Origin: a virus
Lineage: Duplodnaviria; Heunggongvirae; Uroviricota; Caudoviricetes
IMG/VR virus record: IMGVR_UViG_2681813269_000009
Direction: 5' to 3' (one strand)
Length of the DNA: 10,441 bases
Made by a program: the position numbers and the translations under genes. The notes under the pieces are model-generated. The model had not been told where the DNA came from and did no database searches. It was given only the letters and a program-made list of their open reading frames with translations. This document shows, in pieces, positions 275 to 7,102 of the stretch. Each line of letters starts with the position of its first letter. Within the stretch, counting starts at the first letter, position 1.

Positions 275-640
275 ATGGCACTGACGAAAAAACAACGTGC
301 AGAACTGCGCATGAAGTTCGGTGGTCGCTGCGCTTATTGCGGCTGCGAACTTGGCGAAAAGTGGCATGCAGACCATGTAAAACCGGTCATTCGTTTTGAT
401 GGAAATATGCTTCACCAGGAACGTGACGATATATCCAACATGGTACCAGCATGCCACCCATGCAATCTGCACAAGCATTGCAGTAGCCTGGAAGATTATC
501 GACGAATTATCAGTGATGGTCGTCGTGAATTCCTTGCGTCCGGGAAAGGCAAAGCGCTGGTTCGTATGGGATTGGTTGAAATGAAATCTGACCCGGTTGT
601 GTTCTGGTTTGAAAAATATCAAGAAGGGGCTACGGCATGA
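275..640 (+). CDS. HNH endonuclease (121 aa)
   Basis: ATG at 275 with SD aaggaaag 7 nt upstream. Motifs CAYCGC ... HADHV ... N ... CHPCNLHKH match the CxxC/HxxH/N/CxxC HNH zinc-finger nuclease pattern. Start chosen at 275 rather than the in-frame ATG at 185. Confidence 0.8.
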   Translation: MALTKKQRAELRMKFGGRCAYCGCELGEKWHADHVKPVIRFDGNMLHQERDDISNMVPACHPCNLHKHCSSLEDYRRIISDGRREFLASGKGKALVRMGLVEMKSDPVVFWFEKYQEGATA

Positions 641-1782: not shown

Positions 1783-1958
1783 TGCAGCGGGTGCTTGAGG
1801 CTATCTGTCTCAGGCATGAACACCAAAAGGCAGATAGAGAAAAGCCCCAGTTAACATTACGCGTCCGGCAAGACGCTTAACATTAATCTGAGGCTCAATC
1901 TATGAACGGCAAATCTAGGTTAGCCTCTTACGTGCCGAAAGGCAAGGAGAAGCAGGCT

Positions 1959-2114
1959 ATGAAGCAGCAAAAGGCGATGTTAATCGCCCTGATCGTCATC
2001 TGTTTAACCGTCATTGTGACGGCACTGGTAACGAGGAAAGACCTCTGCGAGGTACGAATTCGAACCGGCCAGACGGAGGTCGCTGTCTTCACAGCTTACG
2101 AACCTGAGGAGTAA
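1959..2114 (+). CDS. hokD: Hok/Gef-family type I toxin (51 aa membrane peptide)
   Basis: MKQQKAMLIALIVICLTVIVTALVTRKDLCEVRIRTGQTEVAVFTAYEPEE is the Hok/Gef signature and matches my recollection of E. coli HokD/RelF. SD aaggaga at 1944-1950. The in-frame ATG at 1902 gives an N-terminally extended, mok-like frame. Position is syntenic with hokD in Qin (hok, rem, ydfU, Q). Confidence 0.8.
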   Translation: MKQQKAMLIALIVICLTVIVTALVTRKDLCEVRIRTGQTEVAVFTAYEPEE

Positions 2115-2183
2115 GAGACCAGGCGGGGGAGAAATCCCTCGCCACCTCTGATGGGTCAGGCATCCTCAATGCACCCACACTTA

Positions 2184-2209
2184 ACCCGCTTCGGCGGGTT
2201 TTTGTTTTT
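2184..2209 (+). terminator. Rho-independent terminator of the hok transcript
   Basis: Stem acccgc (2184-2189), loop ttcg, stem gcgggt (2194-2199), followed by tttttgttttt. Confidence 0.65.
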
Positions 2210-2334
2210 ATTTTCAACGCGTTTGAAGTTTTAGATGGTGCCGGAATAGAATCAAAAATACTTAAGTAGCGCGCAGGGAGAAGAGGGATGGACCCCGAAC
2301 AGGGGAGTGCTATTTATCTGGAAGGATTCTGTTG

Positions 2335-2616
2335 ATGAAAATCGAAGAATTACGTGAAATTTTTAGTGAAGATGGCCTCTATACTGTGCGCGTTGAGAAT
2401 GGCGCTATTGTCAGCCACTGCCTTCCAGACTACACAATTCTGATAATTCAGCCGTCTTTGCCAGCAGGCACGGGCGGCGCTCTCACGCATTTAAATCTGA
2501 TTGGTACCAGCATCCCCCATGCACTGAAGAACAGGCCGAATGGCTCATTCAGTGTTACCGCAGGCGCGGATGCGAGGTTAAAAAAGCCCTTAGCCTCGAC
2601 TACCGTCACTGGATAA
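2335..2616 (+). CDS. Hypothetical protein (93 aa), at the rem position of Qin-like prophages
   Basis: ATG at 2335 with SD ggaagga at 2320-2326. Lies between hok and the DUF968 gene as rem does in Qin. Sequence not recognised, so the call rests on position only. Confidence 0.4.
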   Translation: MKIEELREIFSEDGLYTVRVENGAIVSHCLPDYTILIIQPSLPAGTGGALTHLNLIGTSIPHALKNRPNGSFSVTAGADARLKKPLASTTVTG

Positions 2617-2691
2617 TCTCCGTCAGGCTCCCTTACTCCGAACGGCCAACGCGTCCGTCCCGCACATTCCAGCAACGGATCTGGAGGTAAT

Positions 2692-3750
2692 GTGCGGGTA
2701 TTACTTCGACCTGTTCTGGTACCGGAACTCGGTCTGGTTATCGTTAAGCCAGGCCGTGAATCAATGTCAGCATTCCATAACGGCAGAATACTGGTGGAGC
2801 CGGAACCAAAAAGCATGCGTAATCTGCCGTCCGGGGTCGTTCCTGCCGCTCGCCAGCCGCTGGTGGAAGACAAAACATTGCTGCCGTTTTTCAGTAACGC
2901 ACGGGTGATTCGTGCTGCTGGTGGTGCTGGTGCATTGTCTGACTGGCTGTTGCGCCATATTAAATCCTGCCAGTGGCCACACGGCGATTATCATCACAGC
3001 GAAACCGTCATTCACCGTTATGGTACCGGCGCAATGGTGTTGTGCTGGCACTGCGACAACCAGCTGCGTGACCAGACATCCGAATCACTCGAGCAACTTG
3101 CTCATCAAAACCTGTCAGCATGGATGATTGACGTCATCGGTCACGCAATAAGCGGTACGCAGGAGCGTGAATTATCTCTGGCTGAATTATCCTGGTGGGC
3201 GGTCCGCAATCAGGTGGCGGACGCGCTACCGGAAGCGGTATTACGTCGTTCGCTGGGGTTGCGTGCGGAAAAAATTCGCTCTGTGTACAGTGAAAGCGAC
3301 ATCATACCGGGAGAGCAGACAGCCACCAGCATACTGAAGCAGCGCACAAAAAATATTGCGTTACTGCCTCACGTCCACCAGCAACAGAACCCACCACAGG
3401 AAAAGACGGTGGTCAGCATTGCCGTTGATCCGGAGTCACCGGCTCAGTATCTCCAGCGCCAGAAATCACAACGGGAAGAGATGCCTGTATACACGCGCTG
3501 GGTAAAAACGCAGAAATGCATGACGTGTGGCAATCAGGCAGATGATCCGCATCACATCATTGGTCATGGACTGGGAGGGATGGGAACAAAGGCTGATGAT
3601 TTGTTTGTTATTCCGTTATGCCGTAAATGCCGTAACGAACTACATGCCGGAGTAAAAGATTTTGAAGAGAAACACGGCAGTCAGCTGTTGTTGCTGATTC
3701 GTTTTTTAATGCACGCGAGAAATTCGGGTGTTCTGAAGTGGAAAGCATAA
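2692..3750 (+). CDS. DUF968 (YdfU-like) phage protein with C-terminal Cys/His zinc-finger-like motif (352 aa)
   Basis: GTG start at 2692 with SD ggagg at 2683-2687. C-terminal CMTCGN ... DPHHIIGHG ... CRKCRNELH motif. Size and position (between rem-like ORF and rusA/Q) match ydfU of Qin from memory. Confidence 0.7.
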   Translation: MRVLLRPVLVPELGLVIVKPGRESMSAFHNGRILVEPEPKSMRNLPSGVVPAARQPLVEDKTLLPFFSNARVIRAAGGAGALSDWLLRHIKSCQWPHGDYHHSETVIHRYGTGAMVLCWHCDNQLRDQTSESLEQLAHQNLSAWMIDVIGHAISGTQERELSLAELSWWAVRNQVADALPEAVLRRSLGLRAEKIRSVYSESDIIPGEQTATSILKQRTKNIALLPHVHQQQNPPQEKTVVSIAVDPESPAQYLQRQKSQREEMPVYTRWVKTQKCMTCGNQADDPHHIIGHGLGGMGTKADDLFVIPLCRKCRNELHAGVKDFEEKHGSQLLLLIRFLMHARNSGVLKWKA

Positions 3751-4131
3751 ATGACCGAGCGCATAGAATTTGTTTTACCTTACCCGCCGACGGTGAACAC
3801 TTACTGGCGTCGTCGTGGCAGCACATATTTTGTATCAAAAGCCGGGGAGCGTTATCGCCGGGCAGTGGCGCTTATTGTTCGCCAGCAGCGGCTGAAATTA
3901 AGCCTGTCCGGAAGGTTGGCAATAAAAATTATTGCAGAACCACCGGATAAGCGCCGCCGTGACCTGGACAATATTCTGAAAGCGCCGCTGGATGCGCTGA
4001 CGCATGCGGGGTTGCTAATGGACGATGAGCAGTTTGATGAAATCAATATCGTTCGTGGTCAGCCAGTATCTGGTGGACGTCTGGGGGTGAAGATTTACCC
4101 CATAATGCATGAAGAGCAGGTCAAAAAATGA
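3751..4131 (+). CDS. rusA: RusA-family Holliday junction resolvase (126 aa)
   Basis: Motifs PPTVNTYW, RRRDLDN and the acidic DDEQ region resemble E. coli RusA. Start abuts the upstream stop. SD ggaaag. Confidence 0.85.
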   Translation: MTERIEFVLPYPPTVNTYWRRRGSTYFVSKAGERYRRAVALIVRQQRLKLSLSGRLAIKIIAEPPDKRRRDLDNILKAPLDALTHAGLLMDDEQFDEINIVRGQPVSGGRLGVKIYPIMHEEQVKK

Positions 4132-4949
4132 AACTGGAAGATTTACCGAAATACTACTCCCCAAAATCCCCTTGCCTGACCGATGCATCGGCCTCAACGT
4201 CAAAAGATGCGCTGAGTATCACTGATGTGATGGCCGCGCAGGGCATGACACAGAATCGGGCTGAGATGGGGTTTTCTGCGTTCCTGGGGAAAATGGGCAT
4301 CAGTATGAATGACAGGGCGCGGGCAACAGAATTACTGGCAGATTATGCACTCAGTCGGTGCGATCGTGTGGCGGCGTTGAGAAAACTTCCGGCAGAAATA
4401 AAACCGGTAGTGATGCGCATTATGGCTTCGTACGCTTTTGAGGATTATGCCCGCAGCGCAGCGAGTAAAAAGCAGTGCCCTTGTTGCTATGGGGAAAAAT
4501 TTATTGAAAGCGTAGTTTTTACAAACAAGGTCCAGTATCCGGATGGTAAGCCGCCGGTATGGGCAAAGTGTACGAAAGGTGTGTATCCGTCTTACTGGGA
4601 AGAATGGAAAAAAGTCAGGGAGGTGGTAAAAGTTGCCTGTCCGGAGTGTGGCGGAAAGGGTGAGGTTTCCACCGCCTGTAAGGATTGCCGTGGGCGTGGT
4701 GTCGCCATTCATCGTGAAGAGTCGGTAAAACGTGGTATGCCTGTTATCAGAGACTGCCAGCGTTGTGGTGGTCGTGGCTATGAAAGACTACCATCAACGG
4801 AGGCATTTAATGCTATATGCGAGGTGACAAACCAGATAACACGCGCGTCATGGGAAAAAACAGTTAAGAAATTTTATGATGCGCTGGTGACCCGGTTTGA
4901 TATTGAAGAAGCATGGGCTGAGCGGCAGTTAAAAAAGGTAACTAGGTAA
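4128..4949 (+). CDS. Late-gene antitermination protein Q (273 aa)
   Basis: ATGA overlap with the rusA stop. Multiple CxxC pairs (CPCC, CPECGG, CKDCRG, CQRCGG) typical of zinc-binding Q proteins. Immediately followed by a promoter plus short-transcript terminator. Confidence 0.8.
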   Translation: MKLEDLPKYYSPKSPCLTDASASTSKDALSITDVMAAQGMTQNRAEMGFSAFLGKMGISMNDRARATELLADYALSRCDRVAALRKLPAEIKPVVMRIMASYAFEDYARSAASKKQCPCCYGEKFIESVVFTNKVQYPDGKPPVWAKCTKGVYPSYWEEWKKVREVVKVACPECGGKGEVSTACKDCRGRGVAIHREESVKRGMPVIRDCQRCGGRGYERLPSTEAFNAICEVTNQITRASWEKTVKKFYDALVTRFDIEEAWAERQLKKVTR

Positions 4950-5521: not shown

Positions 5522-6580
5522 ATGCTTAATACTGTAAAAATATCCAGTTGTGAGTTAATCAACGCCGACTGCCTGGAATTTATCCGGTCGTTACCCGAAA
5601 ATTCTGTTGACCTGATAGTCACGGACCCGCCGTACTTTAAAGTGAAGCCTGAGGGCTGGGATAACCAGTGGAAGGGCGACGATGATTACCTGAAGTGGCT
5701 GGACCAGTGTCTGGCGCAGTTCTGGCGGGTGCTGAAACCTGCCGGAAGTCTTTACCTGTTCTGTGGTCATCGCCTGGCATCTGATATCGAAATCATGATG
5801 CGTGAACGCTTCAGTGTGCTGAACCATATTATCTGGGCGAAGCCGTCCGGACGCTGGAACGGATGCAACAAGGAAAGCCTGCGGGCGTATTTCCCCGCCA
5901 CAGAGCGCATTCTGTTCGCGGAACATTATCAGGGGCCGTATCGTCCGAAAGATGCCGGGTATGCGGCGAAGGGCAGTGCACTGAAACAGCATGTGATGGC
6001 CCCGCTGATTTCTTACTTTCGTGATGCGCGAGCTGCCCTGGGGATAACGGCAAAACAGATTGCAGATGCCACAGGAAAGAAAAACATGGTGTCGCACTGG
6101 TTCAGTGCCGGTCAGTGGCAGTTGCCGAATGAAAGCGATTATCTGAAATTACAGGCGCTGTTTGCCCGGGTGGCAGAAGAGAAGCATCGGCGTGGTGAAC
6201 TGGAAAAGCTCCACCACCAGCTGGTGGATACGTATACCTCACTGAACCGGCAGTATGCGGAGCTGCTGAGTGAATATAAACATCTGCGGCGGTATTTTGG
6301 CGTGACGGTGCAGGTGCCGTATACCGATGTGTGGACGCATAAACCGGTGCAGTTCTATCCCGGGAAACATCCGTGCGAAAAACCGGCAGAAATGCTGCAG
6401 CAGATAATCAGCGCTAGCAGTCGTCCGGGTGACCTGATTGCAGATTTTTTCATGGGGTTGGGTTCGACAGTGAAAGCGGCACTGGCGCTCGGGCGTCGTG
6501 CAATTGGCGTTGAGCTGGAGACTGAACGTTTTGAGCAGACGGTTCGGGAAGTACAGGATTTAGTCAGCCAGAACGGATGA
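5522..6580 (+). CDS. DNA amino-methyltransferase (N6-adenine or N4-cytosine), orphan (352 aa)
   Basis: DPPY catalytic motif at aa 35-38 (nt 5624-5635) and a C-terminal FxGxG AdoMet motif (DFFMGLGST), the order seen in beta-class amino-MTases. No restriction endonuclease partner in the window. Confidence 0.85.
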   Translation: MLNTVKISSCELINADCLEFIRSLPENSVDLIVTDPPYFKVKPEGWDNQWKGDDDYLKWLDQCLAQFWRVLKPAGSLYLFCGHRLASDIEIMMRERFSVLNHIIWAKPSGRWNGCNKESLRAYFPATERILFAEHYQGPYRPKDAGYAAKGSALKQHVMAPLISYFRDARAALGITAKQIADATGKKNMVSHWFSAGQWQLPNESDYLKLQALFARVAEEKHRRGELEKLHHQLVDTYTSLNRQYAELLSEYKHLRRYFGVTVQVPYTDVWTHKPVQFYPGKHPCEKPAEMLQQIISASSRPGDLIADFFMGLGSTVKAALALGRRAIGVELETERFEQTVREVQDLVSQNG

Positions 6581-6620: not shown

Positions 6621-6696
6621 GGCCCTTTAGCTCAGTGGTGAGAGCGAGCGACTCATAATCGCCAGGTCGCTGGTTCAAATCCAGCAAGGGCCACCA
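6621..6696 (+). tRNA. tRNA-Ile2 (anticodon CAT, lysidine type; Met not excluded)
   Basis: Hand-folded cloverleaf: acceptor ggccctt / aagggcc, anticodon loop ctCATaa, T-loop ttcaaat, 3' CCA. Closely resembles E. coli ileX and the ileZ of Stx phages, from memory. Confidence 0.8.
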
Positions 6697-6703
6697 TCAC
6701 ATA

Positions 6704-6780
6704 CCGCCATTAGCTCATCAGGAAAGAGCGCCAGCCTTCGAAGCTGGCTGCGCGGGGTTCAAGTCCCCGATGGCGGTCCA
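6704..6780 (+). tRNA. tRNA-Arg (anticodon TCG)
   Basis: Acceptor ccgccat / atggcgg, D-stem gctc / gagc, anticodon stem ccagc / gctgg with loop ctTCGaa, T-arm cgggg-ttcaagt-ccccg, discriminator t, CCA. Confidence 0.75.
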
Positions 6781-6793
6781 TTATCTGCATCAT

Positions 6794-6833
6794 GCGTTGT
6801 TAGCTCAGCCGGACAGAGCAATTGCCTTCTAAG
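6794..6833 (+). tRNA. tRNA-Arg (TCT), 5' part only, truncated by assembly gap
   Basis: Identical to the first 40 nt of the complete tRNA at 7103-7179, then runs into N at 6834. Confidence 0.5.
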
Positions 6834-6982
6834 NNNNNNNNNNNNNNNNNNNNNNNNNNNNNNNNNNNNNNNNNNNNNNNNNNNNNNNNNNNNNNNNNNN
6901 NNNNNNNNNNNNNNNNNNNNNNNNNNNNNNNNNNNNNNNNNNNNNNNNNNNNNNNNNNNNNNNNNNNNNNNNNNNNNNNNNN
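6834..6982. other. Assembly gap (149 N)
   Basis: Run of N. Confidence 1.
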
Positions 6983-7002
6983 AAATCCAGCAAGGGCCAC
7001 CA
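6983..7002 (+). tRNA. 3' end fragment of a second tRNA-Ile2 copy
   Basis: aaatccagcaagggccacca is identical to 6677-6696 and emerges from the gap. Confidence 0.5.
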
Positions 7003-7009
7003 TCACAAA

Positions 7010-7089
7010 CCGCCATTAGCTTATCAGGAAGAGCAGACGACACGATAACAGGGTTGTTGGTGCGGGGGCGGGTCCCCGATGGCGGTCCA
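7010..7089 (+). pseudogene. Degenerate tRNA-Arg-like element
   Basis: Keeps the acceptor stem (ccgccat / atggcgg), a D-arm and 3' CCA of the Arg-TCG tRNA. The anticodon and T arms are replaced by gacgacacgataacagggttgttggtgcgggggcgggt, which has no canonical 7-nt anticodon loop or TTC T-loop. Confidence 0.45.
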
Positions 7090-7102
7090 TTATCGGTATT
7101 CA

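What the first reader, a model, noticed from the sequence alone, without database searches (positions are those of the whole stretch)
2692..3750. DUF968 protein carries a C-terminal Cys/His nuclease-like zinc motif, alongside a separate HNH endonuclease at 275-640
One operon encodes a canonical HNH endonuclease and a DUF968 protein whose C-terminus (CMTCGN ... HHIIGHG ... CRKCRNELH) looks HNH-like, plus RusA. That is three putative nucleic-acid-cleaving activities in the recombination/late-control region. The function of DUF968 is, to my knowledge, unknown.
Basis: partly seen in the sequence, partly recalled or inferred. Interest (0 to 1): 0.35.

Follow-up and report, generated by a model that had tools for sequence, protein, structure and literature searches.

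The report
Known phage HNH-type nuclease, mutated copy
The gene is an ordinary member of a widespread prophage protein family (YdfU/DUF968) whose C-terminal end was already classified as an HNH-type nuclease finger, and this Shigella copy has lost the histidine that should hold the catalytic metal.

Summary
ORF 2692-3750 is a 352-aa DUF968/YdfU protein. Its C-terminus carries C276-x2-C279, H287-H288, D303, C310-x2-C313 and H318. A canonical HNH gene lies at 275-640, and RusA (3751-4131) and Q (4128-4949) follow directly.

The HNH-like reading is supported. Pfam HNHc_6 scores above its cut-off, PHROG 96 is annotated 'HNH endonuclease', the best PDB sequence hit is YbcO (3g27), and AlphaFold2 gives a beta-beta-alpha unit with H288 at the end of strand 1. 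It is not new: DUF968 plus DUF1364/YbcO were published in 2016-2017 as His-Me finger group 7, with the RusA and Q neighbours noted. No nuclease assay was found in the library searched.

Three additions:
- This exact protein (Shigella, at least 1000 contigs) has Arg314 where 118 of 118 close homologues and 66 of 73 representatives have His. That is the helix residue expected to bind the catalytic metal, so this copy is probably impaired.
- The N-terminal ~190 residues form a confidently modelled domain with no Pfam, PDB or BFVD match and a conserved four-ligand Cys/His site.
- Phage P1 PdcB is a full-length homologue with a degenerate active site and is non-essential.

Interest is low.

The parts
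2692..3750 (+). YdfU/DUF968-family gene, 352 aa, GTG start preceded by GGAGG at 2683-2687
   Evidence: ORF list. Pfam DUF968 2.6e-62 and HNHc_6 1.9e-6. phrog_96 1.1e-162. RefSeq annotation of the homologue. The exact protein is Shigella sonnei / Shigella MULTISPECIES on at least 1000 contigs.
2692..3261 (+). N-terminal domain, residues about 1-190. It has no family assignment. It contains a beta-hairpin (105-118) plus a helix (119-125) and a long helix (131-154).
   Evidence: AF2 domain model with pLDDT 90.2. No Pfam hit for any of 28 members. No PDB sequence hit. No Foldseek hit in PDB or BFVD, all E>0.5. phrog_11007 'unknown' covers residues 2-135.
2968..3054 (+). Putative zinc site of the N-domain: C93, H101, C118, C121, within the motif C-Q-x6-[HC]-x16-C-W-H-[CH]-D-N
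   Evidence: All four positions are Cys or His in 71 of 77 representatives covering them. Patterns: CHCC 36, CCCH 24, CHCH 11, never CCCC. C93 and C118 are invariant in the 28-sequence alignment. Metal binding is inferred, not shown.
3364..3417 (+). Low-confidence, variable-length linker, residues 225-242
   Evidence: pLDDT below 50 in the full-length model. This stretch is gapped in most homologues.
3454..3747 (+). C-terminal His-Me (HNH) finger domain, residues about 255-352: helix 265-271, knuckle C276/C279, strand 285-288, strand 306-309, helix 311-319, then two helices
   Evidence: AF2 secondary structure and pLDDT 93-97. HNHc_6 above cut-off. The profile's best PDB hit is 3g27 YbcO, E=0.037. 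20 of 25 members hit HNHc_6, 6 RecA_dep_nuc, 5 YbcO.
3550..3555 (+). H287-H288. H288 is the predicted general base at the end of strand 1. H287 is a predicted auxiliary metal ligand.
   Evidence: H288 in 76 of 79 and H287 in 74 of 79 representatives. Roles follow the general His-Me description in PMC5714182.
3631..3633 (+). Codon 314, CGT (Arg), where the family has CAT/CAC (His). This is the predicted primary catalytic-metal ligand, lost in this copy.
   Evidence: DNA read. 118 of 118 close homologues have His. 66 of 73 representatives have His, and the query is the only Arg. The pentad is HHDHH in 63 of 70 and HHDRH only here. 13 other members of the same 90% cluster all have His.
3751..4131 (+). 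RusA Holliday-junction resolvase gene, starting directly after the DUF968 stop codon
   Evidence: Pfam RusA 2.1e-16 and phrog_34 3.5e-57.
4128..4949 (+). Q-type late antiterminator gene, overlapping rusA by 4 nt
   Evidence: Pfam Antiterm 6.2e-55.
275..640 (+). Separate canonical HNH endonuclease gene (CxxC...HADH...N...CxxCN)
   Evidence: Pfam HNH 2.2e-6 above cut-off and phrog_2118 8.8e-57. RefSeq calls the homologue 'HNH endonuclease'.
2183..2200 (+). Intrinsic terminator after hokD, separating the upstream HNH block from the DUF968-RusA-Q block
   Evidence: Stem of 7 pairs (5 G-C) followed by a T-run. hok by Pfam. sok by Rfam at 1789-1964.

Best explanation
ORF 2692-3750 encodes a two-domain accessory DNA-metabolism protein of temperate phages, the YdfU/DUF968 family, which includes P1 PdcB. 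The N-terminal ~190-residue domain carries a conserved Cys/His site, probably zinc. I infer that it provides DNA or partner recognition. A flexible linker connects it to a C-terminal treble-clef His-Me (HNH) finger. In that finger, C276/C279/C310/C313 hold a structural zinc. H288 at the end of strand 1 is the general base. H287, H314 and H318 would hold the catalytic divalent metal, and D303 takes the place of the motif Asn. The gene is co-expressed with RusA and Q at the end of the delayed-early (nin) region. The family most likely nicks or cleaves branched or damaged DNA during phage recombination and replication, in the manner of lambda Rap/NinG or P1 Ref, and is dispensable in the laboratory. 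In this Shigella prophage copy the primary metal ligand His314 is Arg, so the nuclease is probably weakened or dead. Shown here: family membership, motif conservation, predicted fold, the substitution, and synteny. Inferred: zinc binding, nuclease activity, substrate, and the effect of R314.
For: Family and fold evidence:
- DUF968 scores 210 bits, HNHc_6 scores 28.0 bits against a cut-off of 26.6, and PHROG 96 'HNH endonuclease' scores 1e-162.
- The C-domain profile's top PDB hit is YbcO 3g27, aligning H288, K300, D303 and C310-x2-C313-H314.
- Diverse members hit HNHc_6, RecA_dep_nuc, YbcO, HNH_5, HNH and HNH_2.
- The AF2 model (pLDDT 85.5) shows strands 285-288 and 306-309 and helix 311-319.
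- 10 of the 37 Foldseek PDB rows are chains of HNH proteins (Cap5, HNH-Cascade, Gme HNH, IscB, ScoMcrA), though all have E>3.
- The pentad is HHDHH in 63 of 70 representatives.

Published classification:
- DUF968 is assigned to His-Me finger group 7, with RusA and Q as neighbours. The residue roles are described there.

Synteny:
- RusA lies within two genes in 8 of the 11 loci examined, and a late activator lies immediately downstream in most.
- The P1 homologue pdcB is non-essential.

This copy:
- R314 is unique to this sequence.
- The N-domain Cys/His quartet is conserved.
Against: No nuclease assay for any DUF968, YdfU, YbcO or PdcB protein was found in the library searched. All Foldseek hits to solved HNH structures are statistically insignificant (E>3). 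I could not superpose coordinates. The YbcO hit is only E=0.037. The P1 PdcB-like subgroup has lost H288, H314 and H318 yet keeps the rest of the protein. That argues that catalysis is not the only conserved function. Arg at 314 may be tolerated if H287 and H318 suffice. The recombination role rests on neighbourhood only. PADLOC gave no hit, but that does not exclude an unknown defence or counter-defence role.
Confidence: 0.6

Rival explanations
1. The family's conserved function is non-catalytic. It would be a zinc-finger DNA- or protein-binding factor, for example a modulator of RusA, of replication forks or of late-gene switching. The HNH finger would serve mainly as a binding scaffold, so R314 would matter little.
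For: P1 PdcB and three representatives (P0200, P0205, P0223) lack H288, H314 and H318 but keep the four Cys of the finger and a well conserved N-domain. The N-domain has more invariant columns across lambdoid, Vibrio and P1 members than the C-domain. The gene sits immediately upstream of the late activator (Q, Lpa) in very different phages. The R314 variant is found on at least 1000 Shigella contigs.
Against: The full catalytic pentad HHDHH is kept in 63 of 70 representatives. That is hard to explain without selection for catalysis. A Vibrio-type subgroup lost the zinc Cys ligands but kept all catalytic His residues. Shigella sonnei is clonal, so the many contigs carrying R314 do not show that the variant is selected.
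Confidence: 0.2
2. It is a packaging-associated HNH, of the HK97 gp74 type, that stimulates terminase cleavage at cos or pac.
For: HNH proteins assisting terminase are common in siphophages (established knowledge, not tested here). In P1, pdcB lies two genes upstream of pacA/pacB.
Against: In every lambdoid locus examined the gene lies in the early region upstream of Q and the lysis genes, not beside terminase. P1 PdcB has a degenerate active site and is non-essential, whereas pacA and pacB are essential.
Confidence: 0.05
3. It is a selfish homing-type HNH endonuclease, or a defence or counter-defence nuclease carried as a moron.
For: HNH domains are frequent in homing endonucleases and in defence systems. 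The other HNH, at 275-640, gives weak hits to Septu PtuB models.
Against: The DUF968 protein has no PADLOC hit. Its two-domain architecture and syntenic position are conserved across Escherichia, Shigella, Salmonella, Klebsiella, Pantoea, Serratia and Vibrio phages and P1. That pattern is unlike sporadic homing genes. No partner immunity or ATPase gene is adjacent.
Confidence: 0.08

Closest known systems
E. coli Qin prophage YdfU (Pfam DUF968, PF06147); His-Me finger group 7 of Jablonska et al. 2017
   Same: Same family (210 bits) and same two-domain length class (~350 aa). Same position after hokD/rem and before the Q-type antiterminator. The same C-terminal finger.
   Different: This copy has Arg314 instead of the conserved His. 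RusA is inserted between it and Q. My recollection is that K-12 Qin lacks RusA at this position. That was not checked here.
DLP12 prophage YbcO (Pfam YbcO/DUF1364, PDB 3g27)
   Same: Best solved-structure relative of the C-domain. The aligned residues are the catalytic His, K300, D303 and the CxxC-H at the helix start. Same published His-Me group. From my own knowledge of the DLP12 gene order, ybcO also sits beside rusA just before Q. That was not checked here.
   Different: YbcO is a 96-aa single-domain protein with no N-terminal domain. The similarity is weak: E=0.037, and only 5 of 25 members reach E<=0.1 against the Pfam model. YbcO has Asp where DUF968 has H318.
Pfam HNHc_6 (PF16784), the Orf-HNH fusion proteins of Listeria and Staphylococcus phages (Curtis et al. 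2014)
   Same: The C-terminal finger matches above Pfam's cut-off.
   Different: Those proteins have an N-terminal lambda Orf/NinB-like domain. No similarity to Orf (PDB 1PC6) was found for this protein by sequence profile or Foldseek.
Phage P1 PdcB
   Same: Full-length homologue: 25.6% identity over residues 32-348, E=7e-21. It has the N-domain motif and the four finger Cys, and it lies just upstream of the late activator Lpa.
   Different: The catalytic residues are degenerate: H288 becomes Tyr, H314 becomes Gln, H318 becomes Glu. It is non-essential.
Lambda Rap/NinG and P1 Ref (recombination-associated His-Me nucleases)
   Same: All are phage His-Me finger proteins. Rap occupies the analogous nin-region slot before Q. 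6 of 25 C-domains give weak hits to RecA_dep_nuc, the Ref family.
   Different: The DUF968 protein has no Pfam NinG hit. The Ref hits are below threshold. No shared N-terminal domain was found.

Membership tests
Pfam DUF968 (PF06147) / YdfU family | Match to the family HMM above the curated gathering score | tested here: met
   210.3 bits against a cut-off of 27.8, residues 160-344 on profile positions 1-169 of 171. phrog_96 matches full length at 1.1e-162.
His-Me finger (HNH) superfamily | [quoted passage not shown] | tested here: met
   The AF2 model has strands 285-288 and 306-309 and helix 311-319 at pLDDT 94-97. Superposition on a solved HNH was not possible. Foldseek hits to HNH proteins were all E>3.
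His-Me finger (HNH) superfamily | Nearly invariant catalytic His at the C-terminal end of strand 1 | tested here: met
   H288 is the last residue of strand 285-288. It is His in 76 of 79 representatives.
His-Me finger (HNH) superfamily | [quoted passage not shown] | tested here: not met
   The family has His314 (66 of 73 representatives, 118 of 118 close homologues). This copy has Arg314, codon CGT at 3631-3633. The role of this position is taken from PMC5714182. The fold membership stands, but the catalytic competence of this copy is doubtful.
His-Me finger (HNH) superfamily | Auxiliary ligands: a D/E/H before the catalytic His, and a polar residue at +4 on the helix | tested here: met
   H287 and H318 are present here and conserved, in 74 of 79 and 66 of 72 representatives.
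His-Me finger (HNH) superfamily | Omega-loop Asn (the middle N of H-N-H) | tested here: inconclusive
   An invariant Asp303 (78 of 78) occupies the expected place before strand 2. Equivalence to the motif Asn is inferred from spacing only.
His-Me finger (HNH) superfamily | Metal-dependent nuclease activity | not testable with these tools
   No assay was found for YdfU, YbcO, PdcB or any DUF968 protein in the literature library.
Treble-clef zinc finger | CxxC knuckle plus two ligands at the end of strand 2 and the start of the helix | tested here: met
   The ligands are C276-x2-C279 and C310-x2-C313. Patterns among representatives are CCCH 31 and CCCC 21. Zinc binding itself was not tested.
Pfam HNHc_6 (PF16784), Orf-HNH proteins | HMM match above cut-off plus an N-terminal Orf/NinB-like domain | tested here: not met
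   The finger matches (28.0 bits against 26.6), but only on profile positions 113-184 of 204. No Orf-like region was found.
Pfam YbcO/DUF1364 (PF07102) | HMM match above cut-off; single-domain ~96-aa protein | tested here: not met
   The window protein does not hit the model. 5 of 25 relatives hit weakly, best E=0.012. The PDB 3g27 hit is E=0.037. It is related but not a member.
Lambda NinG/Rap (PF05766) | HMM match above cut-off | tested here: not met
   The DUF968 protein has no hit. Only the other HNH, at 275-640, gives a sub-threshold 18.2 bits against a cut-off of 25.4.
Terminase-associated HNH (HK97 gp74 type) | Gene adjacent to terminase and portal genes | tested here: not met
   The gene lies upstream of Q and the lysis genes in all lambdoid loci examined.

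The most novel reading that the evidence does not exclude
The real unknown here is the N-terminal ~190-residue domain, not the HNH finger. It would be an unrecognised zinc-binding fold with a treble-clef-like element: C93, [H/C]101, hairpin, C118-x2-[C/H]121-D-N. It is conserved from lambdoid YdfU to P1 PdcB more strongly than the nuclease active site. It could be an ancient, inactivated duplicate of the His-Me finger, or a new DNA-structure or partner-recognition module. On this reading the family's core role, always encoded just before the late-gene activator, is partly non-catalytic.
Probability: 0.2. Interest if true: 0.4.

Novelty: already known. Interest (0 to 1): 0.15.

Why it matters
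DUF968/YdfU genes sit in thousands of Escherichia coli and Shigella prophages. 4546 of 5426 complete E. coli genomes match this stretch. They also occur in Stx-converting phages and in P1, yet no experiment on them was found in the library searched. Showing what the protein cuts or binds would fill one of the last blanks in the lambdoid nin region. It might also explain why a second nuclease is so often paired with RusA. For this window the practical message is smaller. The annotation 'HNH-type nuclease domain' is justified and already in the databases. This Shigella allele should not be assumed active, because it lacks the metal-binding histidine.

Tried and rejected
- Internal duplication: I tested whether the N-domain is a sequence-detectable duplicate of the C-terminal finger. 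hhalign of the N profile against the C profile found the expected register (W85/C93/HH102 against W270/C276/HH288), but at P=0.18 and probability 0.3%, so it is not supported.
- Fold of the N-domain: Foldseek of the pLDDT-90 model found nothing significant in PDB (best E=1.4) or in BFVD (best E=0.52). Pfam scans of all 28 N-domains and a PDB profile search were empty.
- Full-length Foldseek: the search of the whole model against PDB gave only E>3 hits.
- Orf/NinB-like region: Curtis et al. 2014 described one for 'DUF968' proteins of Gram-positive phages. No 1PC6 hit appeared by any method. Those proteins are now Pfam HNHc_6.
- Apparent fusions: some representatives join the N-domain to tail-tip, tail-fibre, capsid or portal domains. 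The one contig inspected shows the early region joined directly to a tail-fibre gene, which indicates a deletion or assembly chimera rather than a real architecture.
- Defence role: there is no PADLOC hit.
- Wider locus sampling: the search for related loci with alignments A1 and A2 failed because no stretch was conserved enough. Synteny therefore rests on 11 hand-picked loci.

Full report
**What is in the window.**
The window is the nin/late-control region of a lambdoid prophage, with every gene below on the + strand:
- a canonical HNH gene at 275-640;
- an unknown ORF at 637-1302;
- DUF551 at 1302-1667;
- hok/sok at 1789-2114, followed by a strong terminator at 2183-2200;
- a disrupted rem-like ORF;
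- the DUF968 gene at 2692-3750;
- rusA at 3751-4131;
- a Q-type antiterminator at 4128-4949;
- a DNA methyltransferase at 5522-6580;
- tRNA genes;
- an IS3-family element.

The exact DUF968 protein is on record as 'DUF968 domain-containing protein [Shigella sonnei] / MULTISPECIES [Shigella]' on at least 1000 contigs. Related DNA occurs in 4546 of 5426 complete E. coli genomes.

**Check of the observation.**
The ORF, its coordinates and the three quoted peptide strings are exact. They are CMTCGN at 276-281, HHIIGHG at 287-293 and CRKCRNELH at 310-318. Pfam DUF968 matches at 2.6e-62. The 275-640 gene is a genuine HNH by Pfam and PHROG, and RefSeq calls its homologue 'HNH endonuclease'. RusA is intact.

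The phrase 'one operon' holds only for DUF968-RusA-Q, which have a 0-nt gap and then a 4-nt overlap. The upstream HNH is separated from them by the hok/sok cassette and its terminator.

**Is the C-terminus HNH-like?**
Yes. The evidence is as follows:
- The protein hits Pfam HNHc_6 above the curated cut-off (28.0 against 26.6 bits), and 29.9 bits for the isolated C-terminus.
- It matches PHROG 96, annotated 'HNH endonuclease', end to end. It also matches three further HNH PHROGs.
- I collected diverse relatives by an exhaustive representative search, which gave 1270 hits at E<=1e-3, and aligned 28 full-length ones.
- Of 25 C-domains, 20 hit HNHc_6, 6 RecA_dep_nuc (P1 Ref), 5 YbcO, 3 HNH_5, 1 HNH and 1 HNH_2. 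All are His-Me families.
- A profile of the C-domain finds YbcO (PDB 3g27) as its best solved relative, at E=0.037. H288, K300, D303 and C310-x2-C313-H314 are aligned.
- AlphaFold2 on the 28-sequence alignment gave mean pLDDT 85.5. The C-domain has strand 285-288, strand 306-309 and helix 311-319 at pLDDT 94-97. This is the beta-beta-alpha core, with H288 at the end of strand 1.
- Foldseek of the whole model against PDB gave no significant hit (all E>3). Even so, 10 of the 37 rows are chains of HNH proteins: Cap5, HNH-Cascade, Gme HNH 4h9d (TM 0.44 on the target), IscB and ScoMcrA. I treat this as weak corroboration only.

**Residue roles.**
Jablonska et al. 2017 describe the active site as built from four elements:
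- the near-invariant His at the end of strand 1;
- the Asn or His in the first turn of the helix, which binds the metal directly;
- often a D/E/H just before the catalytic His;
- a polar residue at +4 on the helix.

These map to H288, H314, H287 and H318. Invariant D303 takes the place of the loop Asn. C276/C279/C310/C313 form the treble-clef zinc site. Among representatives the pentad at 287/288/303/314/318 is HHDHH in 63 of 70. The zinc quartet is CCCH in 31 and CCCC in 21.

**What is already known.**
- Kaur & Subramanian 2016 predicted a nuclease function for YbcO/DUF1364 from its treble-clef fold.
- Jablonska et al. 2017 placed DUF968 and DUF1364 together as His-Me finger group 7. They named YdfU and listed RusA, antiterminator Q and antirepressor as genomic neighbours. 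They proposed a recombination role like that of NinG and Ref.
- Curtis et al. 2014 had noted the 'zinc finger HNH endonuclease motif' in DUF968.

Searches for DUF968, YdfU, YbcO, DUF1364 and PdcB found no biochemical study. 'Function unknown' is true only in the experimental sense.

**First addition: this copy has lost the metal ligand.**
The window protein reads CRKC-R-NELH. All 118 close homologues that contain the motif read CRKC-H. So do 13 other members of the same 90% cluster, including other Shigella sequences. Among 50%-identity representatives, position 314 is His in 66 of 73, and the query is the only Arg. The codon is CGT where His would be CAT or CAC.

Because H314 is the residue expected to bind the catalytic metal directly, this allele is probably catalytically weakened or inactive. 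That fits a decaying Shigella prophage. The neighbouring rem-like ORF has lost its start at a mosaic junction, and an IS3-family element sits downstream. The effect of R314 is inferred, not shown.

**Second addition: an unassigned N-terminal domain.**
Residues 1 to about 190 are modelled confidently, at pLDDT 90.2 as a separate job. They have no Pfam match in any of 28 members, no PDB sequence match, and no significant Foldseek match in PDB or BFVD.

The domain contains a loop with C93 and H101, then a hairpin (105-110 and 113-118), then a helix (119-125) that opens with C118-W-H-C121-D-N. The four positions 93/101/118/121 are Cys or His in 71 of 77 representatives. The patterns are CHCC 36, CCCH 24 and CHCH 11, and never CCCC. 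This is the signature of a single metal site with treble-clef-like topology.

The order of elements parallels the C-domain, which suggests an old duplication. Profile-profile comparison does not support that, however (P=0.18).

**Third addition: family breadth and context.**
- Full-length homologues occur in Stx-converting phages, SfII/SfIV, ST64B, cdtI phage, phages of Klebsiella, Pantoea, Serratia and Vibrio, and in P1 and P7 as PdcB. In all, 175 phage records match.
- In 11 loci examined, RusA lies within two genes in 8, on either side. A late activator (Q, DUF1133 or Lpa) is usually the next gene.
- P1 PdcB keeps the N-domain and the four finger Cys but has lost H288, H314 and H318.
- PdcB is non-essential by CRISPRi, and an insertion mutant was recovered.
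- A Vibrio-type subgroup shows the opposite pattern: the zinc Cys are lost and the catalytic His are kept.

Most lineages therefore conserve a competent active site, but catalysis is dispensable in some.

**Mechanism and rivals.**
The best-supported reading (confidence 0.6) is an accessory two-domain phage nuclease co-expressed with RusA. It would act on recombination or replication intermediates, and it is probably impaired in this copy. The rivals are:
- a mainly non-catalytic zinc-finger binding protein (0.2);
- a homing-type, defence or counter-defence nuclease (0.08), which has no PADLOC hit and stable synteny against it;
- a terminase-helper HNH (0.05), which is in the wrong genomic position.

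**Verdict.**
Novelty is 'already known', with minor new details: the R314 allele, the N-domain metal site, and the degenerate PdcB. Interest is 0.15.

Noticed in passing
window 2332-2690: The small gene upstream of DUF968 looks disrupted. A rem-like reading frame (90% identical to the 92-aa product upstream of DUF968 in E. coli locus L001) runs from about 2424 to 2690 without a start codon. A different N-terminus (ATG 2335, MKIEELREIF...) runs in another frame to a stop at 2616. This points to a mosaic junction or frameshift near 2425.
   Followed up: partly
window 1789-2200: There is a complete hok/sok type I toxin-antitoxin cassette: Pfam HOK_GEF 3e-23 and Rfam sok 112 bits. A strong intrinsic terminator at 2183-2200 is followed by a promoter-like site at 2223-2252. 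Together they split the early region into two blocks.
   Followed up: partly
window 6621-7179: The tRNA cluster holds Met-CAT, Arg-TCG and Arg-TCT. A ~306-nt unit is duplicated (repeats 6677-6724/6983-7030 and 6763-6833/7072-7142), and an N-masked stretch lies between the copies. A fourth tRNA may be hidden there.
   Followed up: no
window 8005-9662: Rfam STnc100 sRNA matches twice, at 8005-8194 (123.6 bits) and 9474-9662 (71 bits). A 126-nt direct repeat (8044-8169 and 9512-9637) flanks the IS3-family transposase ORFs on the minus strand (8416-9234 and 9270-9617). This is an unusual long duplication around an IS, and short N-masked runs are nearby.
   Followed up: no
representative proteins P0146, P0174, P0176, P0160, P0127; locus L006 4894-6642: Several database proteins join the first 150-225 residues of the DUF968 N-domain in frame to tail-tip J, tail-fibre collar, capsid or portal domains. 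In the one contig inspected, the early region (RusA, KilA-N) runs straight into a tail-fibre gene. These look like prophage deletions or assembly chimeras rather than real architectures.
   Followed up: partly
locus L005 2405-3448 (phage P1 pdcB): P1 PdcB, listed as 'unknown function' and non-essential, is a full-length YdfU/DUF968 homologue. Its HNH active site is degenerate but its N-domain and zinc Cys residues are intact.
   Followed up: yes
locus L007 1989-2943 (Salmonella phage ST64B sb47/sb48): The DUF968 homologue of ST64B is annotated as two overlapping CDS. tblastn joins them in two pieces, which suggests a frameshift or sequencing error in that record.
   Followed up: no
window 4128-4949: The Q antiterminator gives a sub-threshold match to the DnaJ CXXCXGXG zinc-finger repeat over residues 171-218 (28.4 bits against a cut-off of 32.7). 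It is preceded by an N-terminal part assigned only to Q-like PHROGs.
   Followed up: no
window 275-640: The small HNH protein (121 aa) matches only positions 161-275 of the 301-position phrog_2118 profile, so many relatives carry an extra N-terminal region that is absent here. It also gives weak generic hits to Septu PtuB and IscB HNH models.
   Followed up: no
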